In this document: piece by piece, positions 2-11,618 of the stretch
Numbering within the stretch: position 1 is the first letter of the stretch
Layout: each line of letters opens with the position of its first letter
Assembly: GCA_028711925.1 (NCBI GenBank)
Contig: JAQTRH010000001.1
Location: forward strand, 1 to 27,150
Reading direction: 5' to 3'
Source of the DNA: Candidatus Nanoarchaeia archaeon
Lineage (GTDB): Archaea > Nanobdellota > Nanobdellia > Woesearchaeales > CG1-02-33-12
DNA length: 27,150 nucleotides
Notes under the pieces: model-generated
Database searches by the model: none
What the model saw: the letters and a program-made list of their open reading frames with translations, nothing else
Told to the model about the DNA's origin: nothing
Position numbers and translations under genes: made by a program

Positions 2-541
2 GAGGAAGGTAATCTCCTTGTAAATCTTGCCAGAGAGTCTATTTCTTGCTGTTTTAACAACAAAAATCCTAATATAAGCAAAGTTGAAAAATTTTCTGAT
101 AACCAAGGCGTTTTTGTTACACTAACTAAAAACAATCAGCTAAGAGGGTGCATTGGTTTTCCAGAGCCGGTATTTCCTTTATACAAGGCAGTGATAAAGG
201 CAGCTACAGCAGCAGCATTTGAAGACCCAAGGTTTCCTCCTTTGCAAAAACAGGAGTTTAAAGATATAAGCATAGAGATTTCTGTTCTTACTGTTCCCAG
301 GCTTATCAAGGTTAACAATCCAGAGGATTACCTGAAAAAAATAAAGATAGGAAGAGATGGATTGATAATAAGATCTGGCCTTGGGTCTGGCCTATTATTA
401 CCCCAAGTTGCAACAGAATACAAATGGGATGTGAAAACATTTTTAGAGAATTTATGCCAGAAGGCATGGCTAAGCTCAGATGCATGGAAAGATATCACTA
501 ATAAGCTATACAAGTTCCAAGCCCAGATTTTTAGAGAATAA
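2..541 (+). CDS. AMMECR1-domain protein (AmmeMemoRadiSam protein A family), 5' partial
   Basis: Frame is open from position 2 (EEGNLLVNLARESI...), well upstream of the ORF-track start at 191. Contains GVFVTL, LRGCIG, AAFEDPRF, GRDGLII, GLLLPQVA and LCQKA motifs. Confidence 0.92.
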   Translation, partial: EEGNLLVNLARESISCCFNNKNPNISKVEKFSDNQGVFVTLTKNNQLRGCIGFPEPVFPLYKAVIKAATAAAFEDPRFPPLQKQEFKDISIEISVLTVPRLIKVNNPEDYLKKIKIGRDGLIIRSGLGSGLLLPQVATEYKWDVKTFLENLCQKAWLSSDAWKDITNKLYKFQAQIFRE

Positions 542-543
542 TA

Positions 544-551
544 TTTAAATA
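544..551 (+). promoter_or_regulatory. TATA box of the idsA-ispG-ispH operon (probably leaderless)
   Basis: TTTAAATA ends 22 nt before the ATG at 574; no SD in between. Confidence 0.55.
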
Positions 552-573
552 TATAATACAAATAATCTTTAGA

Positions 574-1626
574 ATGGAAACACGAGACCTATTAAAACAG
601 TATAAAGACAAGGTTAACTCAAAAATTAATGATTTTTTTGATTCTGAAATAAAAAACTGCCAGAATAAAGATGAAAAAATCATCAACCTTATTGATAATC
701 TAAAAGAGTTTAATCTTAGAGGGGGAAAGAGAATAAGGGCAATTCTTGCCTTGGTTTCTTATGAGTTATTTGATGGAAAAGATTTTAATTCTATGCTCGA
801 TATTGCTGTTTCAGTTGAGTTGATGCAGTCATTCTTTCTTATCCATGATGATATCATTGACAATGACAGTTTCAGAAGAGGGGGCCCAACATTCCACAAA
901 ATTTATGAGAACAGCAATGAAAATCTTGGACAAAGACAATCAGAGGGAATAGCAATAGTTGCAGGAGACATTCTTGAGTCATTAAGCAAAAAAATGATTT
1001 TACAATCATGCTTTAATGAACAAATTAAAATAAAGATTCTTGAAAAATTCAATGAAATCATAGAAAATACCTGTTATGGGGAATTTCTGGACATCTTATC
1101 AGCAAAACAACAAAACATGGATGAAGAGGATATAATCAAAATCCATAAGTTTAAGACAGCTAAATACACAATTGAGGGCCCTTTGCAACTTGGGGCCATA
1201 ACAGCTGGCGCTGATGATAAGCAGCTTAAAATATTAAGCGATTATGCAATTCCCCTTGGAATAGCATTTCAAATAAAAGATGATATAATGGGTCTTTTTG
1301 GGGACAATGAAAAGATTGGAAAGCCGGCTGGCTCTGATGTCAGAGAGGGAAAAATTACGCTTTTGATTTTAAAGGCAATTGAAAAATGCTCTGAAGATGA
1401 CAAAAACCTTATAAAAAGTTGCCTTGGGAATGAAGATATAACTGAAGATGAGCTTTCAAAATTAAGAAAAATAATAGTGAAAACAGGCTCCTTAGACTAT
1501 TCTGAAAAGCTTTCTGAGAAGTTAATATTTCAAGCAAAAGATGCATTGAAAAAATCAAGCTTAAGCGAACAATCAAAACATCTTCTTTTTGAAATCGCGG
1601 ATTTAATTCTTAAAAGGGATTGCTAG
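574..1626 (+). CDS. idsA: Short-chain trans-polyprenyl diphosphate synthase (FPP/GGPP synthase)
   Basis: GGKRIR, FARM IHDDIIDNDSFRRG, GDIL, KTAKYT, SARM FQIKDDIMG, GSDVREGKITL. Confidence 0.93.
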   Translation: METRDLLKQYKDKVNSKINDFFDSEIKNCQNKDEKIINLIDNLKEFNLRGGKRIRAILALVSYELFDGKDFNSMLDIAVSVELMQSFFLIHDDIIDNDSFRRGGPTFHKIYENSNENLGQRQSEGIAIVAGDILESLSKKMILQSCFNEQIKIKILEKFNEIIENTCYGEFLDILSAKQQNMDEEDIIKIHKFKTAKYTIEGPLQLGAITAGADDKQLKILSDYAIPLGIAFQIKDDIMGLFGDNEKIGKPAGSDVREGKITLLILKAIEKCSEDDKNLIKSCLGNEDITEDELSKLRKIIVKTGSLDYSEKLSEKLIFQAKDALKKSSLSEQSKHLLFEIADLILKRDC

Positions 1627-1628
1627 AA

Positions 1629-2669
1629 ATGAAAACAAAAAAAACAAGGCTTATCAAGGTTGGAAATGTAAACATAGGAGGCAATTCTGAAATAACAATA
1701 CAATCAATGTGCAACACCAAAACAAAAGACACAGAACAAACAATAAATCAGATAAAAGAACTTGAAAAAGCTGGATGCGATATAGTGAGGGTTGCTGTGG
1801 AGGATATGGATGATGCGCTTGCATTGAAAAAGATAAAGGAAAACATAAATATCCCTTTGGTTGCAGATATACATTTTGATTACAAACTTGCTTTGGAATC
1901 AGCTAAGTATGCTGATAAATTAAGAATAAACCCTGGAAATATTGGCTCAAAAGATAAAGTAAAAATGGTTGTTAATGCAGCAAAAGAGCGCTCTGTTCCA
2001 ATAAGAATCGGTGTTAATCTTGGCTCTATTGAAAAAGAATTCAAGGAAAAATTTGGATTAACAAGCAAGGCAATGGTCGAGTCTGCAATGAAGCATATAA
2101 AGATTCTTGAATATCTTGATTTTTATGATATCATTGTTTCCTTAAAGGCATCTGACATAAAAAGAACTGTTGATGCTTACAGGATGATATCTGAAAAGAT
2201 TGATTATCCTTTGCATCTTGGAATAACAGAAGCAGGAACTGCTTACTCAGGCACAATAAAATCATCTATTGGAATTGGCTCTTTATTATTAGATGGAATT
2301 GGAGACACAATAAGAGTATCACTTACATCAAATCCTGTTGATGAGGTTAGAGCAGGAATTGAGATATTGAAATCCTTGGAATTAAGAAACGGCCCAATAA
2401 TAATATCCTGCCCTGGATGCGGAAGGACAAAGATTAATCTAGAAAAAATCACAAAAGATGTTGAAAATTCTGTTTGTCATTTAAAAAAGCCATTAAAGAT
2501 AGCTGTGATGGGCTGCGAAGTTAATGGTCCTGGCGAGGCCTCTGAAGCAGATATTGGGATTGCAGGAGCAACTGATTGCGCTGTTTTGTTTAAGAAAGGC
2601 AAATTCATCAGAAAAATTGAAAAAAGCAGCATCACAGAATGTTTGCTTAAAGAAATAGAAAAGTTGTGA
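1629..2669 (+). CDS. ispG: (E)-4-hydroxy-3-methylbut-2-enyl diphosphate synthase IspG (short two-domain form)
   Basis: IQSMCNT, GCDIVRVAV, PLVADIHF, RINPGN, IRIGVNLGS, YPLHLGITEAG, GIGDTIRVSLT; Fe-S motifs CPGCGRT and GCEVNGPGEA. ATG at 1629 preferred over TTG at 1620. Confidence 0.97.
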   Translation: MKTKKTRLIKVGNVNIGGNSEITIQSMCNTKTKDTEQTINQIKELEKAGCDIVRVAVEDMDDALALKKIKENINIPLVADIHFDYKLALESAKYADKLRINPGNIGSKDKVKMVVNAAKERSVPIRIGVNLGSIEKEFKEKFGLTSKAMVESAMKHIKILEYLDFYDIIVSLKASDIKRTVDAYRMISEKIDYPLHLGITEAGTAYSGTIKSSIGIGSLLLDGIGDTIRVSLTSNPVDEVRAGIEILKSLELRNGPIIISCPGCGRTKINLEKITKDVENSVCHLKKPLKIAVMGCEVNGPGEASEADIGIAGATDCAVLFKKGKFIRKIEKSSITECLLKEIEKL

Positions 2670-3481
2670 AAATGAAGGTTATATGCGCTGAAAACATGGG
2701 ATTCTGTTCAGGGGTTAAAAGAGCTGTTGATATGGCTTTAAAGCAGAAAGATGCTTTTGTCCTTGGCCAGCTTATACACAATCCACAAGTGGTTGAAATG
2801 CTTGACAAGAAAGGAATAAAGGAAATAAGCTCAGTTGATGATATTGAAAAGGGAAGTTTGATTATAACGGCGCATGGAACAACAAAATCAAATGTTGAAA
2901 AAGCTAAGATAAAAGGTTTAAAAATTATAGACACAACTTGCCCCCTTGTTAAAAAAGTGCAGGACCTTGCAAAAGAGTTCAGCAGTAAAGGTTATGATAT
3001 CATTCTTTTTGGGGATAAAGGGCATTCTGAGGTAAAGGGTATTGTAAGCAATGCAGAAAATATCATTGTTATTTCAAGCAAAGAAGACGCAAAAAATGTT
3101 TTTGTTAAAAAGGCATGCCTATTATCGCAAACAACTCAGTCCATTGAAAAATTTAATGAAATTTCCAAGGTTCTTAAAAGTAATGTAAATGAATTAAAAA
3201 TAATAAATACTATATGCAATGCCACAAAGAAAAGGCAGGATTCTGCAATGAACATAGCAAAGAAGGTTGATATAATGATTGTTATTGGCGGCTATAACAG
3301 CGCGAACACAAAAAGATTAAATGAAATATGCAGCAAAATAACAGAAACTAAACACATTGAAACAACCAGGGAAATAAAAAAAGAATGGTTTCAAGGAAAA
3401 AAATCAGTTGGAATAACAGCAGGAGCGTCAACGCCTGATTTTGTTATAAAAGAAATTAAGAAAAAGATAGAAAGCCTTTAA
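2666..3481 (+). CDS. ispH: 4-hydroxy-3-methylbut-2-enyl diphosphate reductase IspH
   Basis: GFCSGVKRA, IHNPQVV, AHG, DTTCPLV, GHSEV, TICNATKKRQ, SANTKRL, GITAGASTP. GTGA overlap with the ispG stop; alternative ATG at 2672. Confidence 0.97.
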   Translation: MKMKVICAENMGFCSGVKRAVDMALKQKDAFVLGQLIHNPQVVEMLDKKGIKEISSVDDIEKGSLIITAHGTTKSNVEKAKIKGLKIIDTTCPLVKKVQDLAKEFSSKGYDIILFGDKGHSEVKGIVSNAENIIVISSKEDAKNVFVKKACLLSQTTQSIEKFNEISKVLKSNVNELKIINTICNATKKRQDSAMNIAKKVDIMIVIGGYNSANTKRLNEICSKITETKHIETTREIKKEWFQGKKSVGITAGASTPDFVIKEIKKKIESL

Positions 3482-3482
3482 T

Positions 3483-4181
3483 TTATTTTCCGAAGCGCCT
3501 TTCTCTTTTTTTGTATTCTTCAATAACATCTATTAAATCTTGTTTTTCAAATTCCGGCCACATCTTTTCAATAAAGAACCATTCAGAATAAATCGACTGC
3601 CATGTAAGGAAATTGCTTGTTCTTTTATCCCCTCCTGTCCTTATTATCAAATCAGGCTCGCTGCCAAGATCAAGGTTTTCCAATATAATCTTTTCATTTA
3701 TCTCTTCAGGATTAAGTTTGTTTTCTTTTATTTTCTCAGCAATCCTTTTCACAGCATCAACAATTTCTTCCCTTCCGCCGTAGGCAAGGGCAATGTTTAT
3801 CTTGTAATTATCATAATTTTTAGTCTTATCCATTATTTTATGAATTTCATCATTTATATAATCAGAAAAAAGATTATATCTTCCAATAAAATTAATTTTT
3901 ATTTTGTATTTGTCAATATCTTTATTTTCCATTAATTCCTTGAAAGATTCATCAAATATTTTCATAAGGTAATCAAATTCCTTTTTTGGCCTGTTAAAAT
4001 TCTGCATTGAAAAGCAGTATAATGTAAGCTCTTTTATTTTAAGCTCTCTGCACCAAACAAGAAGGTCTTTTAGCTTTTTAGAGCCGTATTCATGCCCTTT
4101 CCAGGGATTAAGATTAAGTTTTTTGGCAAACCGCCTGTTGCCGTCAAGAATAATTCCAATGTGGTTAGGTATTATGCTCAT
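3483..4181 (-). CDS. uppS: cis-prenyltransferase (undecaprenyl/polyprenyl diphosphate synthase)
   Basis: IILDGNRR, FSMQNFNR, NIALAYGGREEI, DLIIRTGGDKRTSNFL, WPEF, RRFGK. Tail-to-tail with ispH, 1-bp gap. Confidence 0.96.
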   Translation of the reverse strand: MSIIPNHIGIILDGNRRFAKKLNLNPWKGHEYGSKKLKDLLVWCRELKIKELTLYCFSMQNFNRPKKEFDYLMKIFDESFKELMENKDIDKYKIKINFIGRYNLFSDYINDEIHKIMDKTKNYDNYKINIALAYGGREEIVDAVKRIAEKIKENKLNPEEINEKIILENLDLGSEPDLIIRTGGDKRTSNFLTWQSIYSEWFFIEKMWPEFEKQDLIDVIEEYKKRERRFGK

Positions 4182-4203
4182 ATAAGAACGCTAAAACAAG
4201 CAC

Positions 4204-4211
4204 TTTATAAA
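4204..4211 (-). promoter_or_regulatory. TATA box (with A-rich BRE-like upstream) for uppS
   Basis: Minus strand CAAAAAGA-TTTATAAA, 22 nt before the ATG at 4181. Confidence 0.6.
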
Positions 4212-4223
4212 TCTTTTTGATAA

Positions 4224-6284
4224 TTAAGGCATTAGAAGTCTATCTATACTACTTATCAATGTTTGTACTTTGTTTATACCTTGGTTGTTTTCAAGTATGT
4301 AATACTTATTCTTAAGTACAACAAGTTCGTTTTCCATTATATACTCAAGTCTTTTATAATCGTTTTTATTCATCCATTTACCTTCTATACAAGAAACCTC
4401 TTCATAAAGATTATTAAAATAACTGTCCAAAACGCCTAATTCATATTCAAATTTTTTATTTGCAATGTAAACGGCATTTTCCTTCTTAGTTTTATACTGA
4501 TTTATAAATGCTTTTAGAGAATCCTCTTTGCTCCAAAAAATATAGTTCTGCAATGAATCTGCCTTATCTTTTAATTTTTTAATTAATCCTAATTCATTTT
4601 TGTATACTTCATTTTTCATTAATCCGTTAACATTTTCTATTATTTCTTCTGCAATATTTGTTTTATTTTTGATGTCTTGCTCAACTCTCTTTATAAGTGA
4701 TTCATATTCCTTTTTACATGTTTTAACATAATCAGACGCCTTTTTTATTTCTGAAATCATGTTATCATCCGAAAAAGAAAAATAAAAATTTTCTAAATCA
4801 GAAAGCTTTAAGTTAATCTGTTCAAGAGATTCGTCTGTTCCCGGGTTATCCCATTTATTATTATAAATAGTCTTTTTCAATTTCAAAAAATCCGACTCGG
4901 CCTTTCTTTTTTTCTCATCGGTTTGATCTATTAAAGTATAACGAAGTTTTTTTATTTTATCTTCAATCTGTTCATTTCCATCAAAAAACACATTATTTTT
5001 AATTATAGAGTAAAGTTCAGTATAATCATTTAATTTATAAATATAGTTGTTAATGTGGTCCACCTTATCCTTTGTAATATTTTCAAAAATTGCATCATAT
5101 TCGTAAGAAAATTCCTCTATTTCTTTTAGTTTAGTGTCTATATTTTTAAAGGCAAAAAGAAAATTTTCATTTAATATATTGTTTAATTTACTGACCTCTG
5201 TTTTATAAGCATTAACCTCAGTTTTCAGAAGTATTTCATCCATAAATTTATCATAATTATCGAAACATTGCGAATCTATTGAAATTAAATTTAAATAATT
5301 TAATTCTTCATTTTTTATCCCGTTTTGAAAGAGAGAATATGCCCTCCCAGTCAATTTTTCTATATCTTTTATTTTGCCTTCTATGGTTTTCCTTGTATTG
5401 TCAATTGTATCCATATACTTGCTTTTTATTCCTGATATGTTTTCTTTTATCTTTTCGGTATTTTTTGCTTTATCATAAACTCCTAAAGATAAATAGCAAT
5501 TTTCTATTTCATCGCTTTTTAAAATAAACTTTTCAAGTTTTTCTGAAGATGCTATCTTACTAAAACTATTTGATTTTATTATATCAACCAACTTTTCAAG
5601 ATTTTTATCAATTTCTGCCTCCTTGACATTCAATTTTCTGTTTATATAATCCCTCAATGAATGAAGTTCAGCAATTATTAATGAAGAACCCTGCTTGAAA
5701 TTTTTATTGTAAACAAGACCAGAAAACATTTTAATTTCATCATCAATATTGTCAAGTGTTTGGTGGATTATTCCTATTTTTTCTTTAAAATTTTCAAATG
5801 TTAAAGTATCAACAGCATTTTTTCTATCATAAATCTTTGACAGGATTATTTTTTTTTCATTTTCAAACTCTTTTAGCAATTCCTTATTTCTGACGAATTT
5901 CAAAGGAAAATGAACTATTTCGTTTTTTTCAATGTTTAAATCAAAATAATCATCAAATTTTAAATTTAAGTTTATTATTTTCTCTAAATCATAATTATCA
6001 ATGCAGACTTTATCTGCTACTTCTTCAAGTTTTTCATTTTCAGTTGATTGATAGTACATAGATTTCTGAAAATTAATGTCTTGAATTTTTTTAAGATGAT
6101 TGTATGAATATGAAGAAAATCCTATTAAGGATGCAATTATCAGTGCCGTAGCTGATTTCAATACTCTGTGTTTAAATCCTTTTACTGTTTCTTGTTCATT
6201 GCTTATTCTTTCATCAATTATTCTATTTGTATCAATAAAATTCAATTCTGCTTCTTTGATTATTTGTTTGTATTCTTCATTCAT
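4224..6284 (-). CDS. Hypothetical 686-aa protein: one N-proximal TM helix and a long alpha-helical K/E/N-rich region
   Basis: Long ORF; hydrophobic SATALIIASLIGFSSYSY at about residues 44-61; ATGA overlap with the upstream gene. No family recognised. Confidence 0.8.
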   Translation of the reverse strand: MNEEYKQIIKEAELNFIDTNRIIDERISNEQETVKGFKHRVLKSATALIIASLIGFSSYSYNHLKKIQDINFQKSMYYQSTENEKLEEVADKVCIDNYDLEKIINLNLKFDDYFDLNIEKNEIVHFPLKFVRNKELLKEFENEKKIILSKIYDRKNAVDTLTFENFKEKIGIIHQTLDNIDDEIKMFSGLVYNKNFKQGSSLIIAELHSLRDYINRKLNVKEAEIDKNLEKLVDIIKSNSFSKIASSEKLEKFILKSDEIENCYLSLGVYDKAKNTEKIKENISGIKSKYMDTIDNTRKTIEGKIKDIEKLTGRAYSLFQNGIKNEELNYLNLISIDSQCFDNYDKFMDEILLKTEVNAYKTEVSKLNNILNENFLFAFKNIDTKLKEIEEFSYEYDAIFENITKDKVDHINNYIYKLNDYTELYSIIKNNVFFDGNEQIEDKIKKLRYTLIDQTDEKKRKAESDFLKLKKTIYNNKWDNPGTDESLEQINLKLSDLENFYFSFSDDNMISEIKKASDYVKTCKKEYESLIKRVEQDIKNKTNIAEEIIENVNGLMKNEVYKNELGLIKKLKDKADSLQNYIFWSKEDSLKAFINQYKTKKENAVYIANKKFEYELGVLDSYFNNLYEEVSCIEGKWMNKNDYKRLEYIMENELVVLKNKYYILENNQGINKVQTLISSIDRLLMP

Positions 6285-6712
6285 TTTTCAAGAATTTGTT
6301 TTATCTTTTTGAATTTATTGTAATAATCAGAAAATTTTTCCTCATTAATTCGAAATTCATTTAATCTTTTTAATGAATTTTTATAGCCTTGATATTTTTC
6401 TTCTTTTAAAAAAAAATCTTTTATTGAATTGCTATTCTCATTTAAAATATGAATTGCACTTGAAACTTTTTCTTGAAAAAGCTTTTCAGTTTTACCTTTT
6501 TTTAAGTTATATTCTTTTAACAAGTCATTGTTTTCACTATAATTAGAAACACAATAATCCAAAAGGATTTTTTTTACATCATCAAATAGAGATATATCAT
6601 CATCAGAAATATTTTCAAAAACAGATAATTCAAGGAGTTGGTGGTTATAGTCAATCTTTTGGATCTTGTTTTGTATCTTATTTTTTTCTCTTTGAATTAT
6701 TTCTTCTTCCAT
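6281..6712 (-). CDS. Hypothetical 143-aa helical protein
   Basis: ORF packed in the operon (12-nt gap upstream, ATGA overlap downstream). Confidence 0.75.
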   Translation of the reverse strand: MEEEIIQREKNKIQNKIQKIDYNHQLLELSVFENISDDDISLFDDVKKILLDYCVSNYSENNDLLKEYNLKKGKTEKLFQEKVSSAIHILNENSNSIKDFFLKEEKYQGYKNSLKRLNEFRINEEKFSDYYNKFKKIKQILEK

Positions 6713-6724
6713 TTTAAAAACCTT

Positions 6725-7813
6725 TTAACTGTAAAATATTCTGTTAAATTCAGATTCAATTTCAGGCGTAAGGTTTTTTATTGAATTTGAAAAATTTTGG
6801 TCAATCCTCAAAGCTAAACTGTTATTTATCCTATACTGAAAACCTATTTTGTAAGATTCTAATTTTCCTTTTCCTATATTATTTAAAAATTCCATGCCGT
6901 ATTTTTCTGCGAATTTTCGAATTTTGTTTTGTCTCAAAATCTCATTTTTTGTATTTCCCTGTGTTTCATTTGATGCATACAAAAACTCCCAGAGATTAGG
7001 ATTTGCATTATTTTTTTCCATTATACTCCATAAACTATCCCCTCTCTTAAGAAAATAATCCTCTTGTATTTCCTGTTCTTGATTCAATCGTTGTGCATAG
7101 TACAACTTTTTATCAAACTCAGAAATTGTATTTTTTTCTTCTAAAAGATAAGAATAAAAATTTTTATCTCTATTCCCGCTTGCTATAACATAATAACTAT
7201 TTTTTGGATTATCATTTTCATTTAACTCAATTTTATCCTCAATCGTCTGTTCAAGTCTTTTACTTGGATTGATCTGGTCTGCATTTTCTTTTAAATCATT
7301 TCCATATCCGAAACCAACAAAAAAAGATAAAGCGCCAATAAGAGTGTATCTTACCATGCTTTTTATATTTTTTTTAAAAAAATCTTTTGTTTTATTGTAA
7401 TCCTTGGTAATAACTGCGCCTAAATATTGTTTTGGTTTTTTATACAACAAAGAAACATTTTGTATCTTGTTTTTTATTTTATTTTTAATATGTTCATCTT
7501 GTTTTACTAATCCATAATTAAAATTTTTTCTCTTTTTACTTTTTCTCCATTCAATATTTCTTCCGTTTTGATGATATTCCCTAAGTACTCTGTATAAGGT
7601 GGATACACTGAAATTGCTTTTTTTGCTGTCATCTCTTCCTTCGTTTAGTTTGTTGCATATTTCATTAACTCTTACATCATTGTTGTTGTAAATACTAATT
7701 ACTTTTTCTTTGTCATGATAACCTATTTTTCTTCCATATTTGAAACCTTTTTTTTTAGGTTCTGCATTTCCATTGCTGATTATATAGTCTATTGTTTTTT
7801 TGTCTTTCATCAT
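6725..7813 (-). CDS. Membrane protein with N-terminal HTH-like region, one TM helix and C-terminal LysM-like motif
   Basis: DKEKVISIY...VNEICNKL...FSVSTLYRVLREY (HTH-like); YTLIGALSFFVGFGYG (TM); YFLKRGDSLWSIMEK...LWEFLYASN (LysM-like). ORF is secure, domain calls are by eye. Confidence 0.65.
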   Translation of the reverse strand: MMKDKKTIDYIISNGNAEPKKKGFKYGRKIGYHDKEKVISIYNNNDVRVNEICNKLNEGRDDSKKSNFSVSTLYRVLREYHQNGRNIEWRKSKKRKNFNYGLVKQDEHIKNKIKNKIQNVSLLYKKPKQYLGAVITKDYNKTKDFFKKNIKSMVRYTLIGALSFFVGFGYGNDLKENADQINPSKRLEQTIEDKIELNENDNPKNSYYVIASGNRDKNFYSYLLEEKNTISEFDKKLYYAQRLNQEQEIQEDYFLKRGDSLWSIMEKNNANPNLWEFLYASNETQGNTKNEILRQNKIRKFAEKYGMEFLNNIGKGKLESYKIGFQYRINNSLALRIDQNFSNSIKNLTPEIESEFNRIFYS

Positions 7814-8892
7814 AAATTAAAAAGAGATTTATTAAATTTCTCATTTGTGTTAATCAGCCTGCGGTCATACACATTGGATATATCATTAAATATTGAATAG
7901 AGGATAGGATTTGAATCTCTATACTGGTTCGCCAGTTCTCTGGGATTTTTCTCAACACCAATTGCTTTTCTTATCCCTTTACCTACTATGTTCTGCACAT
8001 TGTAAGTGTAGTTTTCTATTTGGTTCACACTGTTGAACAAGGAATCTATAGCATAACTCTGCTTGTTTAGTGGATCATAAATCGGTTTTGTTATCCTGAT
8101 AAAATCAAGTATTCTCTTTGTTTTATCTATAAGTTCCTCAGAAGTAAAGGTATAAATTGATATTATCTTCTCTATTTTTTCAAGTTTTGGATCAATTTTT
8201 AGGTAATCAATAAAATTTTCTTCATTTAAGTGTAAATTGTGCACTAGCCTATCTCTTTTTCTCTCTGAGTCTTCAATTAGATTTTTTATCCTAAAATATC
8301 CATTTTCAGAAGCCTTCATTGAACCAAACTTTCTCTTTGCTAGATTATAATCTCTTATAACTTTCTCAAGTTTTTCATTTAGATAATTATGTACAGTAAT
8401 TCTTTTATCCATATCGGATGTCTTTCTTCTTCTATTATTAACCAGGCCTTTATACCTCTTGTTTAACTCAGTTGTCATTGAAAGAAGGGTTAAATTTATC
8501 TCTGAAAGATGGTTCTCTCCCAAAGTCATTATTTCATCAATTGTGTAATTTTTTCCAAAGACATTAATTTTAAAAAAATCAATTACACCATAACCTGCTT
8601 TATGAAATACTGACTTTCCTCTTATTAATTGTCTTTTGAATGCATAATTTATATTCTTAAGTTCTTTTGCTTGTCCAATTATATAAACCAAGTTTCCATC
8701 TGAATTCTTGGAAACTAAATTATTGTTTGCACTAATGGCTTGTCTTTTTTCATTTAGTAATTCTTCCATTTTAGATGTTTCGTTTGGTTCTGAATAAGCT
8801 TTTTGTTCATTTTCATTGTCCTCAACTAATTTCCATATATCTGATTCAGCTTCCTGCCTTCCATTATCATTTTCCTCTGAACTTGTTTTCAT
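7810..8892 (-). CDS. Hypothetical 360-aa soluble helical/coiled-coil protein
   Basis: ORF with SD GGAGGT 7 nt upstream; no hydrophobic segment; acidic low-complexity N-terminus. Confidence 0.8.
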   Translation of the reverse strand: MKTSSEENDNGRQEAESDIWKLVEDNENEQKAYSEPNETSKMEELLNEKRQAISANNNLVSKNSDGNLVYIIGQAKELKNINYAFKRQLIRGKSVFHKAGYGVIDFFKINVFGKNYTIDEIMTLGENHLSEINLTLLSMTTELNKRYKGLVNNRRRKTSDMDKRITVHNYLNEKLEKVIRDYNLAKRKFGSMKASENGYFRIKNLIEDSERKRDRLVHNLHLNEENFIDYLKIDPKLEKIEKIISIYTFTSEELIDKTKRILDFIRITKPIYDPLNKQSYAIDSLFNSVNQIENYTYNVQNIVGKGIRKAIGVEKNPRELANQYRDSNPILYSIFNDISNVYDRRLINTNEKFNKSLFNL

Positions 8893-8905
8893 TTTTCATA
8901 CCTCC

Positions 8906-9124
8906 TCATTTATAATCAAGATTATTATACATTATTTTTTCAATTCCTTTTTGTTTTTCTATACTCTTGGTTACCCTTTCATCAATGGTTTGATAATAAG
9001 CGTGGTTTGCATAATTTGAAATCTTAATCTCAGATTCAATAGTTTTGTTTTCACATCCTCCACCCATGTAATAACCAAGACTAAAACAGATAAAGCCAAA
9101 GAGAAATTTTCTAATAAGACTCAT
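8906..9124 (-). CDS. Small exported or membrane-anchored protein (72 aa)
   Basis: SD GGGAGG 8 nt upstream; RK followed by hydrophobic FLFGFICFSLGYYM, then GGGC. Confidence 0.75.
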   Translation of the reverse strand: MSLIRKFLFGFICFSLGYYMGGGCENKTIESEIKISNYANHAYYQTIDERVTKSIEKQKGIEKIMYNNLDYK

Positions 9125-9629
9125 TTGAATTGCCTCCCTTGTCTAAATAATTATTAATTTTTTTTTCTAGGTTTTTGTAAAAGCTGTCAACCCTGGGTTT
9201 TTGCTTATCAAGAAAATCAAGAATTTTGCTGTACTTATTTTTTAGCTCGTCCTTTATTAAAGGTTCTATTATCTTTATCTTTCTTTCATAAGGCATTTCA
9301 TTGATTCTTTCTTCAATAGTTTCATCATTCATCATGTTTATTATTTCTTTTCCATAACCATTTTCAATTCCGATCTTGCTTATTTTTATGATGTAATCCG
9401 GATAATAATTTGGATTTTTGTTTATTATTTCAAGACTGTGCTCTAAAAGCTCACTGATATCATTACCTGTTTTTCCATAAGCTGGACATTCTTCTTCTGC
9501 CACATAAATCACCTTTTCTTGTATTATTGGCTTTGCATAATTTTTGTCTGTATTTTCTGCAAAAAAACAACCTGTTAAGCCAATTGCTCCTGCCAAAAAA
9601 AATGTTGATATTGTCGTTTTGATACCCAT
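9111..9629 (-). CDS. Putative lipoprotein (172 aa)
   Basis: MGIKTTISTFFLAGAIG-LTGC: signal peptide ending in a lipobox-conforming LTGC. First gene of the operon. Confidence 0.7.
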   Translation of the reverse strand: MGIKTTISTFFLAGAIGLTGCFFAENTDKNYAKPIIQEKVIYVAEEECPAYGKTGNDISELLEHSLEIINKNPNYYPDYIIKISKIGIENGYGKEIINMMNDETIEERINEMPYERKIKIIEPLIKDELKNKYSKILDFLDKQKPRVDSFYKNLEKKINNYLDKGGNSNESY

Positions 9630-9652
9630 ATTAATTAGGTTATAGCAATAAG

Positions 9653-9660
9653 TTTTAATA
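9653..9660 (-). promoter_or_regulatory. Candidate TATA box for the six-gene accessory operon
   Basis: Minus strand TATTAAAA, 23 nt before the ATG at 9629. Confidence 0.45.
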
Positions 9661-9739
9661 AGAATTGCTGAAAAAAAACTTGATAATTTCCGCTTTTTTT
9701 GAATTTAATTGATATTTTATTGAAAGTTATTCAGAAAGA

Positions 9740-9747
9740 TATAAAAA
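9740..9747 (+). promoter_or_regulatory. BRE/TATA for the DUF357 gene
   Basis: CAGAAAGA-TATAAAAA, 23 nt before the ATG at 9771. Confidence 0.55.
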
Positions 9748-9770
9748 CTAGTTTGTTCAATTAATAGAAT

Positions 9771-10058
9771 ATGAGAACAATAACTGAAGAAAAGCTGAAT
9801 CATTATTTTGATATTACAGGCCAGGCCTTAAAAAAAGCCAAGCAAAACATAACAAAAGACTTATCCAAAAAAGGTTTTGCTAATGACTTTCTTGATATGG
9901 CCCAGAGGTATTATGATGATGCAAACTACTTCAAGGAAAAAAATGATTATGTTAACGCCTTTGCAGCGTTAAGCTACGCACACGGATGGTTAGATGCAGG
10001 CGCAAGAATTAAATTATTCAACGTGAATGATTCTAGACTATTCACTGTGGATGATTAA
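9771..10058 (+). CDS. DUF357 family protein
   Basis: DFLDMAQRYYDDANYF...DYVNAFAALSYAHGWLDAGARIKLF matches the archaeal DUF357 pattern. Confidence 0.9.
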   Translation: MRTITEEKLNHYFDITGQALKKAKQNITKDLSKKGFANDFLDMAQRYYDDANYFKEKNDYVNAFAALSYAHGWLDAGARIKLFNVNDSRLFTVDD

Positions 10059-10620
10059 TAACCATAGATATAAGATGAATGATTAATGCAATAAACACTG
10101 ATAAAGCAATAGTTGCGATAAAAAAATTCTGAAAAAAAGACTGCTGATAAACCTGGATCATCAGAGAACTGGGTAAAAATTGCCAGTTGCCCTGCGGAAA
10201 AAAAATTAAATGAAATAATTTAAAAAACGTGTTAAAAAATAGTGATGTGATAATACATAAAAAACCAATAAAGAAAATTATTAAAGTGGATTTCTTAATG
10301 TGATTAATTTTTATTTTTCTTTTGTAAACCAAAACAAAAAATGCAATTGAAAAAATAATAAAAATAAACTCCTCAAGCAGGATAAGATTTCTTACATCTT
10401 TCATGTGAGATTTTTCATCATCACTGAAATCAACATCCAGCTCTGAACTGAGCCCAGTTATATATTTAGTGACATTCTTATTAATTTCAAGAAAATAAGG
10501 GTTATCATTGTATTCTTCTATGAGTTTTTTATGAAAGTGATTACAATTCAAAAGAATATTGAATGAAAGAAGTATCAAAAAAAACGCAATCAAAAGCCCT
10601 ATTAAAAAATCTTTTTTCAT
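10042..10620 (-). CDS. DUF1461/TIGR01906 membrane protein, Lit (lipoprotein intramolecular transacylase)-like
   Basis: Four hydrophobic segments; FSDDEKSHMKDVRNL (H72) and FFKLFHLIFFPQGNWQF (H137). TAATG overlap with the cbf5 stop. Confidence 0.8.
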   Translation of the reverse strand: MKKDFLIGLLIAFFLILLSFNILLNCNHFHKKLIEEYNDNPYFLEINKNVTKYITGLSSELDVDFSDDEKSHMKDVRNLILLEEFIFIIFSIAFFVLVYKRKIKINHIKKSTLIIFFIGFLCIITSLFFNTFFKLFHLIFFPQGNWQFLPSSLMIQVYQQSFFQNFFIATIALSVFIALIIHLISMVINHPQ

Positions 10621-11618
10621 TATGATTTCTCAATCTTAGGATATGTTCCTGGAAGCATAAAAACCTTGTCTGTCTTAACAGCAAGCCCTTTCTCACCAAG
10701 CATCTCTTTTGAGCTCATCTTTGCAATTCCATAACAAATAAGCTCTTTTTTCAAAGTCATAACTGCAACAATATCCTGCTTTTCTATTCCTGAATCTAAC
10801 TGAGATATTCCTGGAAGATTAAGGTTTGCCCCATGGCATAAGCTGTCTACGGCGCTGTCAAGAACATAAATCTTTAAAAGATGCTCTACTGCCTCTTCAA
10901 TTGGCTGTATGCAATATCTGATATATTTTTCATTTTTTTCTTCGTTAAAATAATAAAATGCATCTGTCAAGTCCTGCATTGTAACAAGGTTAGTTAATTC
11001 ATTGAATGGCCCGGCCTTTGTTCTTCTAAGCTCTACCATATGCGCTCCGCATCCAAGCTGCTTTCCTATATCATGTATCAGTTTTCTTATGTATGTTCCT
11101 GCCTCGCATCCAACTTTAAAAAGAACATCCCTTTCATTAATCTCCATTATATCAATATAATAAACGCTTCTCTGCCTTTTCCTTCTTTTTACAGCGCTTT
11201 TTATAGGAGGAATCTGGTCTATCCTGCCAACAAATTTGCTGCACACTTCAGTTATCTTGTTTTCAGAGACATCTTTATGAACATGCATTAAAGCAATGTA
11301 CTCTTTTCCTGCTGTAAGGAGCAACTGAACAACACGTGTTGCTCTCCCAATTGCCAATGGAAGCACGCCTGTAACTCCTGGATCAAGAGTTCCTGAATGC
11401 CCTGCCTTGGATATGCTGAGAATTTTTTGCACATAATCGCTTACCTGGTGGCTTGTAGGGCCAGATGGCTTGTCTATATTGACTATTCCATAATTTATCA
11501 GCTCTTTGACAGGCATGTTCTCTGGAATACAACCAAATTTATCGCTTGTTTCAGCTTTTTTCCTGATTAGAATTTGTCTTTTATGCTTTTCAAAAGGCAA
11601 AAGGTTATTTTTTTCCAT
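10620..11618 (-). CDS. cbf5: H/ACA RNA-guided pseudouridine synthase Cbf5 (TruB family, PUA domain)
   Basis: GIVNIDKPSGPTSHQV, GHSGTLDPGVTGVL, KEYIALM, GCEAGTYIRKLIHDIG, ELRRTKAGPF. ATG at 11618 preferred over TTG at 11636 because TTATTAAATA (11638-11647) lies about 20 nt upstream of it. Confidence 0.96.
   Translation of the reverse strand: MEKNNLLPFEKHKRQILIRKKAETSDKFGCIPENMPVKELINYGIVNIDKPSGPTSHQVSDYVQKILSISKAGHSGTLDPGVTGVLPLAIGRATRVVQLLLTAGKEYIALMHVHKDVSENKITEVCSKFVGRIDQIPPIKSAVKRRKRQRSVYYIDIMEINERDVLFKVGCEAGTYIRKLIHDIGKQLGCGAHMVELRRTKAGPFNELTNLVTMQDLTDAFYYFNEEKNEKYIRYCIQPIEEAVEHLLKIYVLDSAVDSLCHGANLNLPGISQLDSGIEKQDIVAVMTLKKELICYGIAKMSSKEMLGEKGLAVKTDKVFMLPGTYPKIEKS

What the first reader, a model, noticed from the sequence alone, without database searches (positions are those of the whole stretch)
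574..4181. Bacterial-type MEP genes ispG/ispH embedded in an archaeal isoprenoid cluster
Seen: idsA-ispG-ispH are tightly coupled (2-nt gap, GTGA overlap) behind an archaeal-style TATA box, uppS converges on them with a 1-bp gap, and the same contig carries archaeal-only genes. Established: archaea normally use the mevalonate pathway, and MEP genes have been reported in some Woesearchaeota genomes, so this is rare but not unprecedented. Inference: a compact HMBPP to IPP to FPP to polyprenyl-PP module. dxs, dxr, ispD, ispE and ispF are not in this window; if absent genome-wide, the cell may scavenge MEcPP/HMBPP from a bacterial partner.
Basis: partly seen in the sequence, partly recalled or inferred. 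Interest (0 to 1): 0.7.

Follow-up and report, generated by a model that had tools for sequence, protein, structure and literature searches.

The report
Eroded MEP operon remnant in DPANN archaeon
A tiny symbiont-type archaeon (Woesearchaeota) keeps only the last two genes of a bacterial-type isoprenoid-precursor pathway that its relatives carry whole, so it either feeds on a partner's intermediates or is caught in the middle of losing the pathway.

Summary
idsA, ispG and ispH are tightly coupled, uppS converges on them with a 1-bp gap, and the contig is archaeal (Cbf5, L31e, S19e, Dph2). It is not a chimera: the same gene frame recurs in more than 10 independently assembled relatives.

MEP genes in Woesearchaeota are already published (Castelle 2018/2021; Huang 2021), so their mere presence is not new.

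What the comparison adds is context. The ancestral layout in this order is one operon, dxs-ispG-dxr-ispD-ispF-ispE-ispH-idsA(-uppS). The window's family has no dxs or dxr in any of 13 genomes. Its members then show at least eight different deletion states at the same locus.

The window has the G-H state. The deletion runs from the ispG stop codon to just before the ispH start.

IspG and IspH keep all catalytic residues. They show dN/dS of 0.11-0.23, like their flanking genes, and no rate acceleration.

The 89%-complete genome has no dxs, dxr, ispE, ispF, mevalonate genes, IPK or IDI2. A stray ispD on another contig belongs to a different lineage.

Salvage of MEcPP/HMBPP is plausible but unproven. 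A recently orphaned relic is a serious rival: the sister species has a broken ispG, and one relative has lost both genes yet keeps idsA and uppS.

The parts
2..541 (+). AMMECR1-family gene (5' end cut by the contig start), directly upstream of idsA on the same strand
   Evidence: PF01871, 185 bits. AMMECR1-idsA adjacency is conserved in the f1 genomes whose locus includes it.
544..551 (+). TATA-like motif TTTAAATA, 23-30 nt upstream of the idsA ATG
   Evidence: Sequence. The same motif is present in sister genome G001. It is not enriched over chance in the window.
574..1626 (+). idsA, short-chain trans-isoprenyl diphosphate synthase (FPP/GGPP class)
   Evidence: PF00348, 215 bits. Best NCBIfam hits are IdsA/GGPPS types, all below their equivalog cut-offs. 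The first Asp-rich motif reads FFLIHDDIID and the second DDIMG; this DDxxG form is conserved family-wide.
1629..2669 (+). ispG (gcpE), HMBPP synthase, 346 aa
   Evidence: NF001540, 479 bits against 345. 338 bits to A. aeolicus IspG 3NOY, with the CPxCGR...GC...GE cluster ligands aligned. Falls in the archaeal IspG clade, sister to the family's copies.
2666..3481 (+). ispH (lytB), HMBPP reductase; starts at GTG 2666 (overlapping the ispG stop) or at ATG 2672
   Evidence: TIGR00216, 282 bits against 188. The three cluster Cys and the His/Glu/Thr/Ser/Asn substrate residues align with 3DNF and E. coli IspH.
2661..2674 (+). Deletion scar: the ispG stop is joined to the ispH start (AAGTTGTGAAAATG), where relatives carry ispD-ispF-ispE (with or without one extra gene)
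   Evidence: Comparison with G006, G004, G005, L139 and G011 junctions. The shared motif (T/G)GTGA at gene boundaries suggests microhomology.
3483..4181 (-). uppS, cis-prenyl (polyprenyl) diphosphate synthase, convergent with a 1-bp gap
   Evidence: TIGR00055, 256 bits against 110. Sequence. Found in the same position in every f1 locus that reaches it.

Best explanation
The window holds a genuine archaeal (Woesearchaeota/DPANN) operon, idsA-ispG-ispH, facing uppS. It is the terminal remnant of a bacterial-type MEP operon, dxs-ispG-dxr-ispD-ispF-ispE-ispH-idsA(-uppS), that this archaeal order acquired once and passes on vertically.

The window's family lost dxs and dxr. This species then lost ispD-ispF-ispE through a deletion from the ispG stop codon to just before the ispH start.

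Most likely (inferred) the two remaining iron-sulfur enzymes still work. IspG would convert MEcPP to HMBPP. IspH would convert HMBPP to IPP plus DMAPP, so no isomerase is needed. IdsA and UppS would build polyprenyl diphosphate for glycan carriers rather than membrane lipids.

No enzyme that makes MEcPP is encoded, so the substrate would have to come from a MEP-using (bacterial) partner or from the environment. The module is probably useful but dispensable, which would explain why relatives have lost different parts of it.
For: Shown:
- Gene identities and intact catalytic residues.
- Archaeal context and conserved synteny in independent MAGs.
- Source-run contigs tile positions 6-10974 with no mismatches at an even depth of about 5-7x.
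- All 19 archaeal IspG sequences form one clade (SH-aLRT 98) inside the bacterial sequences. G000 is sister to its family's copies and has an ordinary branch length.
- dxs and dxr were found in 0 of 13 family genomes, while five members keep ispG-D-F-E-H intact with dN/dS of about 0.15 among themselves. The dxs/dxr-less pathway was therefore maintained by selection.
- G000 IspG and IspH have dN/dS of 0.11-0.23, like AMMECR1, idsA and uppS. Tajima relative-rate tests show no acceleration.
- No HMGR, MVK, IPK (the only AA-kinase is PyrH), IDI2 or GGGPS was found. A UbiA-like polyprenyl-phosphate transferase and a PAP2 phosphatase are present.
- tblastn with family IspE and IspF finds nothing in G000 even at E<1.
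Against: - The relatives form a mosaic: every lower-pathway gene is missing in at least one of them.
- G001, in the same genus, has ispG fused in-frame to a frameshifted ispE remnant.
- G011 has lost ispG and ispH yet keeps idsA and uppS, so IPP can evidently be obtained without them.
- The G001 ispG fragment still shows dN/dS of 0.18. Losses in this genus are therefore recent, and the absence of rate acceleration in G000 cannot show selection after the deletion.
- The clean junction can be explained by microhomology at a repeated inter-gene motif, so it is not evidence of selection.
- No transporter or partner is identified.
- The genome is 89% complete and was assembled from only about 5-7x depth.
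Confidence: 0.45

Rival explanations
1. Recently orphaned relic. After ispD-F-E were deleted, ispG (and perhaps ispH) have no substrate and are simply not yet degraded. The cell obtains IPP, prenyl diphosphates or finished polyprenols from its host, as relatives without these genes must.
For: - At least eight different deletion states occur at one locus in one family: G-D-F-E-H, D-F-E-X-H with a 25-codon ispG stub, E only, E-X-H', G'::'E'-X-H, G-H, G-E, and AMMECR1-E.
- G001's ispG is destroyed and G011 lacks both ispG and ispH, yet both keep idsA and uppS.
- Losses in this genus are recent, so intact reading frames and normal rates are expected even for a relic.
- Incomplete MEP sets in ultra-reduced bacterial genomes are a known pattern (PMC13001223, PMC10663253).
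Against: - Both ORFs (346 and 269 aa) are intact in a 33% GC genome, with every catalytic residue kept.
- ispH has dN/dS of 0.23 within the genus, even in G001, which lacks ispG. At least IspH therefore appears to be kept for its own sake.
- IspH is the only recognisable source of DMAPP, because no IDI2 was found.
Confidence: 0.33
2. The lower pathway is complete. ispE and ispF (and perhaps more) lie in the unassembled 11% of the genome, having moved away from the operon as an ispD did.
For: Completeness is 89% over 108 contigs at about 5-7x depth. An IspD scoring above its cut-off sits on a separate 5.4-kb contig, C73.
Against: - The ancestral position of ispD-F-E is fully assembled and empty.
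- The C73 IspD is only 44-45% identical to the family's operon IspD, is equally distant from order-level copies, and is no closer than 49% to any of 200 genomes of the order. It is not a relocated operon copy, and neither ispF nor ispE flanks it.
- The 97%-complete sister genome G001 also lacks ispF and ispD and has only a pseudogenised ispE.
Confidence: 0.1
3. Upstream steps are carried out by unrecognised, non-orthologous enzymes, so the pathway is self-sufficient and nothing is scavenged.
For: Many bacteria lack Dxs yet keep the rest of the pathway, and alternatives to Dxs and Dxr are known (PMC10663253). Five family members keep a selected dxs/dxr-less five-gene pathway. Some relatives have an extra gene between ispE and ispH; in G001 it is an AP_endonuc_2 TIM-barrel protein.
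Against: - For G000 this would require replacing five steps, not one or two.
- No DRL-type reductoisomerase was found in five family genomes, though that search had no positive control.
- G001's extra gene has only a marginal match in G000 (32% identity over 76 residues, E 0.003).
- The genome is 0.9 Mb with little biosynthetic capacity.
Confidence: 0.07
4. Assembly or binning artefact: the isp genes come from a bacterium and are wrongly joined to archaeal DNA.
For: The genes are of bacterial type. The closest non-archaeal homologues are mostly Bacillota, at 52-62% identity.
Against: - The same AMMECR1-idsA-[MEP genes]-uppS-orf686... frame occurs in 10 or more independently assembled genomes.
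- The archaeal IspG sequences form one clade.
- GC content and depth are uniform, and Logan contigs bridge idsA-ispG-ispH and ispH-uppS-orf686.
Confidence: 0.01

Closest known systems
MEP pathway clade of Woesearchaeota (Castelle & Banfield 2018, as cited in PMC8204110; Castelle et al. 2021, PMC8204110; Huang et al. 2021, PMC8421398)
   Same: Same archaeal lineage and the same bacterial-type genes. The genes are co-located, a bacterial (Firmicutes-like) origin is inferred, and GGGPS/DGGGPS are absent. G000's IspG falls inside this archaeal clade.
   Different: Those papers describe the pathway as present and co-located. In the text I could read, they do not describe a family that has lost dxs and dxr, the mosaic of deletion states, or a two-gene ispG-ispH remnant.
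Canonical bacterial IspG and IspH (A. aeolicus 3NOY and 3DNF; E. coli IspH 3F7T/3KE8)
   Same: Full-length matches (338 and 212 bits). All Fe-S ligands and substrate-binding residues are conserved.
   Different: Encoded in an archaeon, without the five upstream enzymes.
Incomplete MEP pathways in reduced or symbiotic bacteria, and Listeria's MEP pathway truncated at MEcPP (reviews PMC13001223, PMC10663253)
   Same: Partial gene sets in very small genomes, read as dependence on a partner or as non-isoprenoid roles.
   Different: Listeria keeps the upper part and lacks ispG and ispH. This genome is the mirror image, keeping only the last two steps. PMC10663253 reports IspG and IspH as the 'rigid' steps, which is consistent with their being retained last.
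Host-isoprenoid dependence of obligate intracellular bacteria (Rickettsia and Orientia, as summarised in PMC13001223)
   Same: No complete pathway, so precursors are taken from a host.
   Different: Those bacteria are described as taking up host isoprenoids. Here, uptake of a pathway intermediate (MEcPP or HMBPP) is only hypothesised, and it would imply a bacterial partner rather than an archaeal one.

Membership tests
IspG / GcpE (HMBPP synthase) | Full-length match above the curated equivalog cut-off | tested here: met
   NF001540, 479.1 bits against 345; TIGR00612, 421.5 against 280.25; PF04551 covers profile positions 1-343 of 343.
IspG / GcpE (HMBPP synthase) | Three Cys and one Glu that ligate the [4Fe-4S] cluster (CPxCGR ... 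GC ... GE) | tested here: met
   Aligned to A. aeolicus 3NOY: 'iiscpgcgrt' and 'vmgcevngpgea'. These columns are invariant in the alignment of 5 archaeal IspG sequences.
IspG / GcpE (HMBPP synthase) | Catalytic conversion of MEcPP to HMBPP with a reduced ferredoxin or flavodoxin | not testable with these tools
   Needs complementation or an enzyme assay.
IspH / LytB (HMBPP reductase) | Full-length match above the curated cut-off | tested here: met
   TIGR00216, 282.4 bits against 187.85; PF02401 covers profile positions 1-267 of 267.
IspH / LytB (HMBPP reductase) | Three cluster Cys plus the conserved His, Glu, Thr, Ser and Asn substrate-binding residues | tested here: met
   GFCsGV, TCPLV, ICNAT, IHN, AHG, GHsEV, QTT, NSaN and AGASTP align with 3DNF and E. 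coli IspH. The residue roles are from my own knowledge of the E. coli structure.
Complete MEP pathway | All seven enzymes (Dxs, Dxr, IspD, IspE, IspF, IspG, IspH) encoded | tested here: not met
   dxs, dxr, ispE and ispF were not found in the 89%-complete genome. The only ispD is a divergent copy on C73.
Woesearchaeal MEP clade (single bacterial acquisition) | IspG groups with the other archaeal copies rather than with any bacterium | tested here: met
   19 archaeal rows form one clade (SH-aLRT 98). G000 and its family's copies group with support of 97.
Mevalonate pathway (the usual archaeal route) | HMG-CoA reductase, mevalonate kinase, isopentenyl-phosphate kinase | tested here: not met
   HMGR and MVK were not found. 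HMGR was found in only 2 of 61 genomes of the order. The single AA-kinase is PyrH.
Short-chain trans-prenyl diphosphate synthase (IdsA, FPPS/GGPPS) | Two Asp-rich motifs; product length set by the residues before the first motif | tested here: inconclusive
   The first motif, DDIID, is present and preceded by FF at positions -5 and -4. The second motif is DDxxG, conserved across the family. All NCBIfam equivalog scores fall below their cut-offs, so the product could be C15 or C20.
UppS (cis-prenyltransferase) | Full-length match above the curated cut-off | tested here: met
   TIGR00055, 256.3 bits against 109.55.

The most novel reading that the evidence does not exclude
This Woesearchaeal family runs progressively shortened MEP pathways that are kept by selection without their entry enzymes. 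The five-gene form has neither dxs nor dxr, and this genome keeps only ispG and ispH. These archaea would therefore live on MEP-pathway intermediates (MEP, MEcPP, HMBPP) that only bacteria make. That would point to bacterial partners, rather than archaeal ones, for a DPANN lineage. It would also be a natural example of retrograde outsourcing of a pathway to a partner.
Probability: 0.3. Interest if true: 0.75.

Novelty: new variant of a known kind. Interest (0 to 1): 0.5.

Why it matters
The presence of MEP genes in Woesearchaeota is already known. What is of interest here is the evolutionary series. One family of DPANN archaea shows a horizontally acquired pathway being dismantled gene by gene at a single conserved locus, while the remaining genes stay under purifying selection.

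If the truncated forms are functional, they are a genomic signature of metabolite hand-over from bacteria to an archaeal symbiont. The hosts of Woesearchaeota are unknown, and this gives concrete, testable candidates for what is exchanged. If they are relics, the series is a clean natural record of the order and mechanism of pathway loss, through gene-precise deletions at repeated inter-gene motifs.

Tried and rejected
- **Chimera or contamination.** Rejected on conserved synteny, the tree, even depth and bridging contigs.
- **C73 ispD as the relocated operon gene.** Rejected. It is 44-45% identical to the family copies and equally distant from order-level copies. No genome in a 200-species sample of the order exceeds 49%.
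- **The clean ispG|ispH junction as evidence of selection.** Rejected. A shared (T/G)GTGA motif at gene boundaries can explain gene-precise deletions, and other relatives show similarly clean junctions.
- **The TATA box as statistical evidence.** The motif is not enriched.
- **Isopentenyl-phosphate kinase route.** The only AA-kinase is archaeal PyrH.
- **IDI2.** Only weak hits far below the cut-off. IDI type 1 was not searched.
- **DRL-type Dxr substitute.** No hits in five family genomes, but the control set also had none, so the result is weak.
- **More members of the window's genus.** A metagenome scan with IspG returned nothing closer than 69% identity, so long-term maintenance of the G-H junction could not be tested.
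- **C73 non-coding stretch.** Rfam and tRNA scans found nothing.
- **Read laying.** It returned contigs only, from the probable source sample, so it is neither independent nor read-pair evidence.
- **f23 genomes with neighbouring ispG and ispH.** These carry IspDF elsewhere, so they are not truncated.
Full report
**1. What is in the window**

Positions 2-4181 encode AMMECR1 (partial), idsA, ispG and ispH on the plus strand, and uppS on the minus strand. Every match is full length and, apart from idsA, every NCBIfam score is above its curated cut-off.

- idsA TAG, then 'AA', then the ispG ATG at 1629.
- The ispG TGA overlaps a GTG at 2666. An in-frame ATG at 2672 gives the same 'stop-AA-ATG' form.
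- A 1-bp gap separates the convergent stops of ispH and uppS.

A TTTAAATA motif lies 23-30 nt before the idsA ATG and is kept in the sister species. The motif is no more frequent in this AT-rich window than in shuffles (16 against 13.5).

The rest of the contig carries genes typical of archaea: Cbf5 with DKCLD and PUA domains, L31e, S19e, Dph2, a PDCD5-like protein and DUF357.

**2. It is not a chimera**

The genome (G000) is 0.92 Mb in 108 contigs, 89% complete with 3% contamination.

Three lines of evidence exclude a mis-join:
- The frame AMMECR1-idsA-[MEP genes]-uppS(convergent)-orf686-orf143-orf362 recurs in other members of the same family, assembled independently.
- Contigs of the probable source run, a landfill metagenome, tile positions 6-10974 with no mismatches. 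Depth is even at about 5-7x, and single pieces span idsA-ispG-ispH and ispH-uppS-orf686. This sample is not independent, but it shows no break.
- In an IspG tree, all 19 archaeal sequences of the order form one clade (SH-aLRT 98) nested among bacterial sequences, mostly Bacillota. G000 is sister to its family's copies (support 97), with a terminal branch of ordinary length.

**3. What is already known**

Castelle et al. 2021 (PMC8204110) report the MEP pathway in a monophyletic clade of 52 Woesearchaeota genomes with co-located genes, citing Castelle & Banfield 2018. Huang et al. 2021 (PMC8421398) report it in subgroups F and J, with IspDF fusions, Firmicutes-like Dxr and IspG, and no GGGPS or DGGGPS. 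The bare presence of ispG and ispH in such an archaeon is therefore not new.

One relative in my panel, G034, is deposited as 'Nanoarchaeota archaeon'. Earlier notes of this scan also call the genome Woesearchaeota.

**4. The rest of the pathway**

In G000, profile searches find no dxs, dxr, ispE or ispF. tblastn with the family's own IspE and IspF finds nothing even at E<1.

The mevalonate route is also missing. HMGR and MVK were not found. The only amino-acid-kinase-fold protein is archaeal UMP kinase, not isopentenyl-phosphate kinase. IDI2 was not found either.

GGGPS is not found in G000 and gives only marginal hits across the order. A UbiA-family protein most like decaprenyl-phosphate phosphoribosyltransferase sits next to a PAP2-type polyprenyl-diphosphate phosphatase. 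The isoprenoid demand therefore looks like polyprenyl-phosphate glycan carriers rather than membrane lipids.

An IspD scoring above its cut-off lies on contig C73. However:
- It is only 44-45% identical to the family's operon IspD and equally distant from order-level copies.
- No genome in a 200-species sample of the order has a closer copy; the best is 49%.
- It is about 50% identical to Thermoanaerobacterium IspD, and it has unnamed metagenomic relatives at 81% and about 60% identity.
- Neither ispF nor ispE flanks it.

It is a separate lineage, not the gene deleted from the operon.

**5. The comparative picture**

I searched a panel of 60 relatives for all seven genes. I then annotated the ispG neighbourhoods of about 60 genomes of the order.

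The common layout is a single operon, dxs-ispG-dxr-ispD-ispF-ispE-ispH, often followed by idsA and a convergent uppS. Examples are G038, G076, G086, G107, G308, G146 and G384. The link between the MEP genes and idsA/uppS is therefore ancestral.

In the window's family (f1, 13 genomes) dxr was found in none and dxs above the cut-off in none.

Five members (G004, G005, G006, G009, G010) keep idsA-ispG-ispD-ispF-ispE-ispH-uppS. G004, G005 and G006 share the same ispG|ispD junction sequence. Among G004 and G006, dN/dS is about 0.15 at dS of 0.5-1.1. A pathway without its two entry enzymes has therefore been maintained by purifying selection. That requires either an outside supply of an intermediate or unrecognised replacement enzymes. 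A DRL-type reductoisomerase was not found, but that search had no positive control.

**6. The mosaic of deletion states**

The same locus shows a different state in each of the other members:

| Genome | State at the locus |
|---|---|
| G002 | ispG reduced to a 25-codon in-frame stub (N-terminus joined to C-terminus), then ispD-F-E, an extra gene, and ispH |
| G011 | idsA-ispE-uppS only, with the last codons of ispG still visible before ispE |
| G007 | idsA-ispE, an extra gene, and a fragmentary ispH at the contig end |
| G003 | AMMECR1-ispE |
| L139 (metagenome contig) | idsA-ispG-ispE |
| G001 (same genus as the window, 97% complete) | A 153-aa chimeric ORF joining IspG residues 1 to about 77 in-frame to the middle of IspE (GcpE plus GHMP_kinases_N domains), then a frameshifted ispE tail, an AP_endonuc_2 TIM-barrel gene, and an intact ispH |
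| G000 (the window) | idsA-ispG-ispH-uppS |

The window's ispG ends AAG TTG TGA, as in L139 and in the G011 remnant. It is followed by 'AA' and then the ispH ATG. Gene boundaries in this operon share a (T/G)GTGA motif, so microhomology can account for such gene-precise deletions. The neat junction is therefore not evidence of selection in itself.

**7. Are ispG and ispH still functional?**

Evidence for function:
- Both reading frames are intact. IspG keeps CPxCGR...GC...GE. IspH keeps its three cluster cysteines and the conserved His, Glu, Thr, Ser and Asn positions.
- dN/dS is 0.12 for ispG (G000 against G006). For ispH it is 0.11 (against G006) and 0.23 (against G001). The flanking genes AMMECR1, idsA and uppS range from 0.05 to 0.20.
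- Tajima relative-rate tests show no excess change on the G000 lineage. Counts are 30 against 27 and 24 against 32 for IspG, 17 against 18 for IspH, and 12 against 12 for G000 against G001.
- ispH is conserved within the genus even though G001 has no working ispG. This suggests IspH is kept for its own sake. It is also the only recognisable source of DMAPP.

Evidence against function:
- The IspG fragment in G001 still has dN/dS of 0.18. Losses in this genus are therefore recent, and the tests above mostly reflect the time before the deletion.
- Every gene of the lower pathway is dispensable in some relative.
- G011 keeps idsA and uppS without ispG or ispH.

**8. Weighing the readings**

It is well supported (about 0.95) that this is a genuine archaeal remnant of the vertically inherited Woesearchaeal MEP operon.

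What the remnant now does is open:
- About 0.45: it is still functional and fed from outside with MEcPP or HMBPP, and it is probably dispensable.
- About 0.33: it is a recently orphaned relic.
- About 0.10: ispE and ispF are hiding in the unassembled part of a low-coverage bin.
- About 0.07: unrecognised enzymes supply the substrate.
- About 0.01: it is an artefact.

The scavenging step, the identity of any partner and any transporter are all inferences. Nothing in the sequence shows them.

**9. A possible second case, and the limits of this work**

G382 is in another family and is 93% complete. It has ispG and ispH 687 nt apart, in an archaeal context of TrmB, Lhr helicase and PCNA genes, and shows no IspD or IspF with an IspDF query. 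I had no searches left to test it for dxs, dxr and ispE.

The tallies include four unpublished genomes (G143, G218, G220, G323). I did not fetch or analyse them, and no specific claim rests on them beyond those counts.

Noticed in passing
L269:6058-7692 (G034:C112; public record JAGLMD010000033.1): A single 544-aa ORF carries the IspE domains (GHMP kinase N and C) followed by a full IspH (LytB) domain, a natural IspE-IspH fusion. ORF lengths of 548-768 aa at the ispE/ispH hits in G021, G050, G052 and G053 suggest the same fusion there.
   Followed up: partly
L026:3731-4192 (G001:C15): A 153-aa chimeric ORF joins the first ~77 residues of IspG in-frame to the middle of IspE (GcpE plus GHMP_kinases_N domains). 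A frameshifted ispE tail follows. This is a fresh deletion pseudogene in the window's sister species.
   Followed up: yes
L029:4642-4720 (G002:C46, between idsA and ispD): A 25-codon mini-ORF (MERRKTRGMKVGKIFEALLNKIRKL) is the N-terminus of IspG joined in-frame to its C-terminus. This internal deletion keeps the start, the stop and the junction with ispD.
   Followed up: partly
L033 (G011:C18), L032 (G007:C72), L034 (G003:C56), L139: ispE is the gene most often retained without ispD and ispF, next to idsA. It was found in 10 of the 12 other family genomes, which suggests an independent role. From my own memory, IspE orthologues have a reported isopentenyl-monophosphate kinase side activity; I did not check this here.
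   Followed up: no
L026:4585-5343 (G001); gaps of about 1 kb between ispE and ispH in G002, G005 and G007: An extra gene sits between ispE and ispH in some family members. In G001 it is an AP_endonuc_2 (xylose-isomerase-like TIM barrel) protein. The ORF at the same place in G002 has no Pfam match. Its role, if any, in feeding the dxs/dxr-less pathway is unknown.
   Followed up: partly
L035 (G000:C73) 2013-2538: A stretch with no long ORFs matches several places in each of three family genomes at 74-85% nucleotide identity, far above the 66-68% of the neighbouring coding DNA. No tRNA or Rfam match. It looks like a multi-copy conserved element.
   Followed up: partly
L136 (G000:C57) 1384-2711, minus strand: A UbiA-family protein most like decaprenyl-phosphate phosphoribosyltransferase (198 bits, below the cut-off of 234) lies next to a PAP2-type undecaprenyl-diphosphatase-like protein. 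These are likely users of the UppS product.
   Followed up: partly
L242 (G382:C13) 8998-11556: In a different family of the order, ispG and ispH lie 687 nt apart among archaeal genes (TrmB, Lhr helicase, PCNA). No IspD or IspF was found with an IspDF query. This may be a second, independent genome with only ispG and ispH.
   Followed up: partly
window 2-541 and 574-1626; relatives' loci: AMMECR1 lies directly upstream of idsA in the window and in eight other f1 genomes, and next to uppS in G114. This conserved association of AMMECR1 with isoprenoid genes may be worth a look.
   Followed up: no
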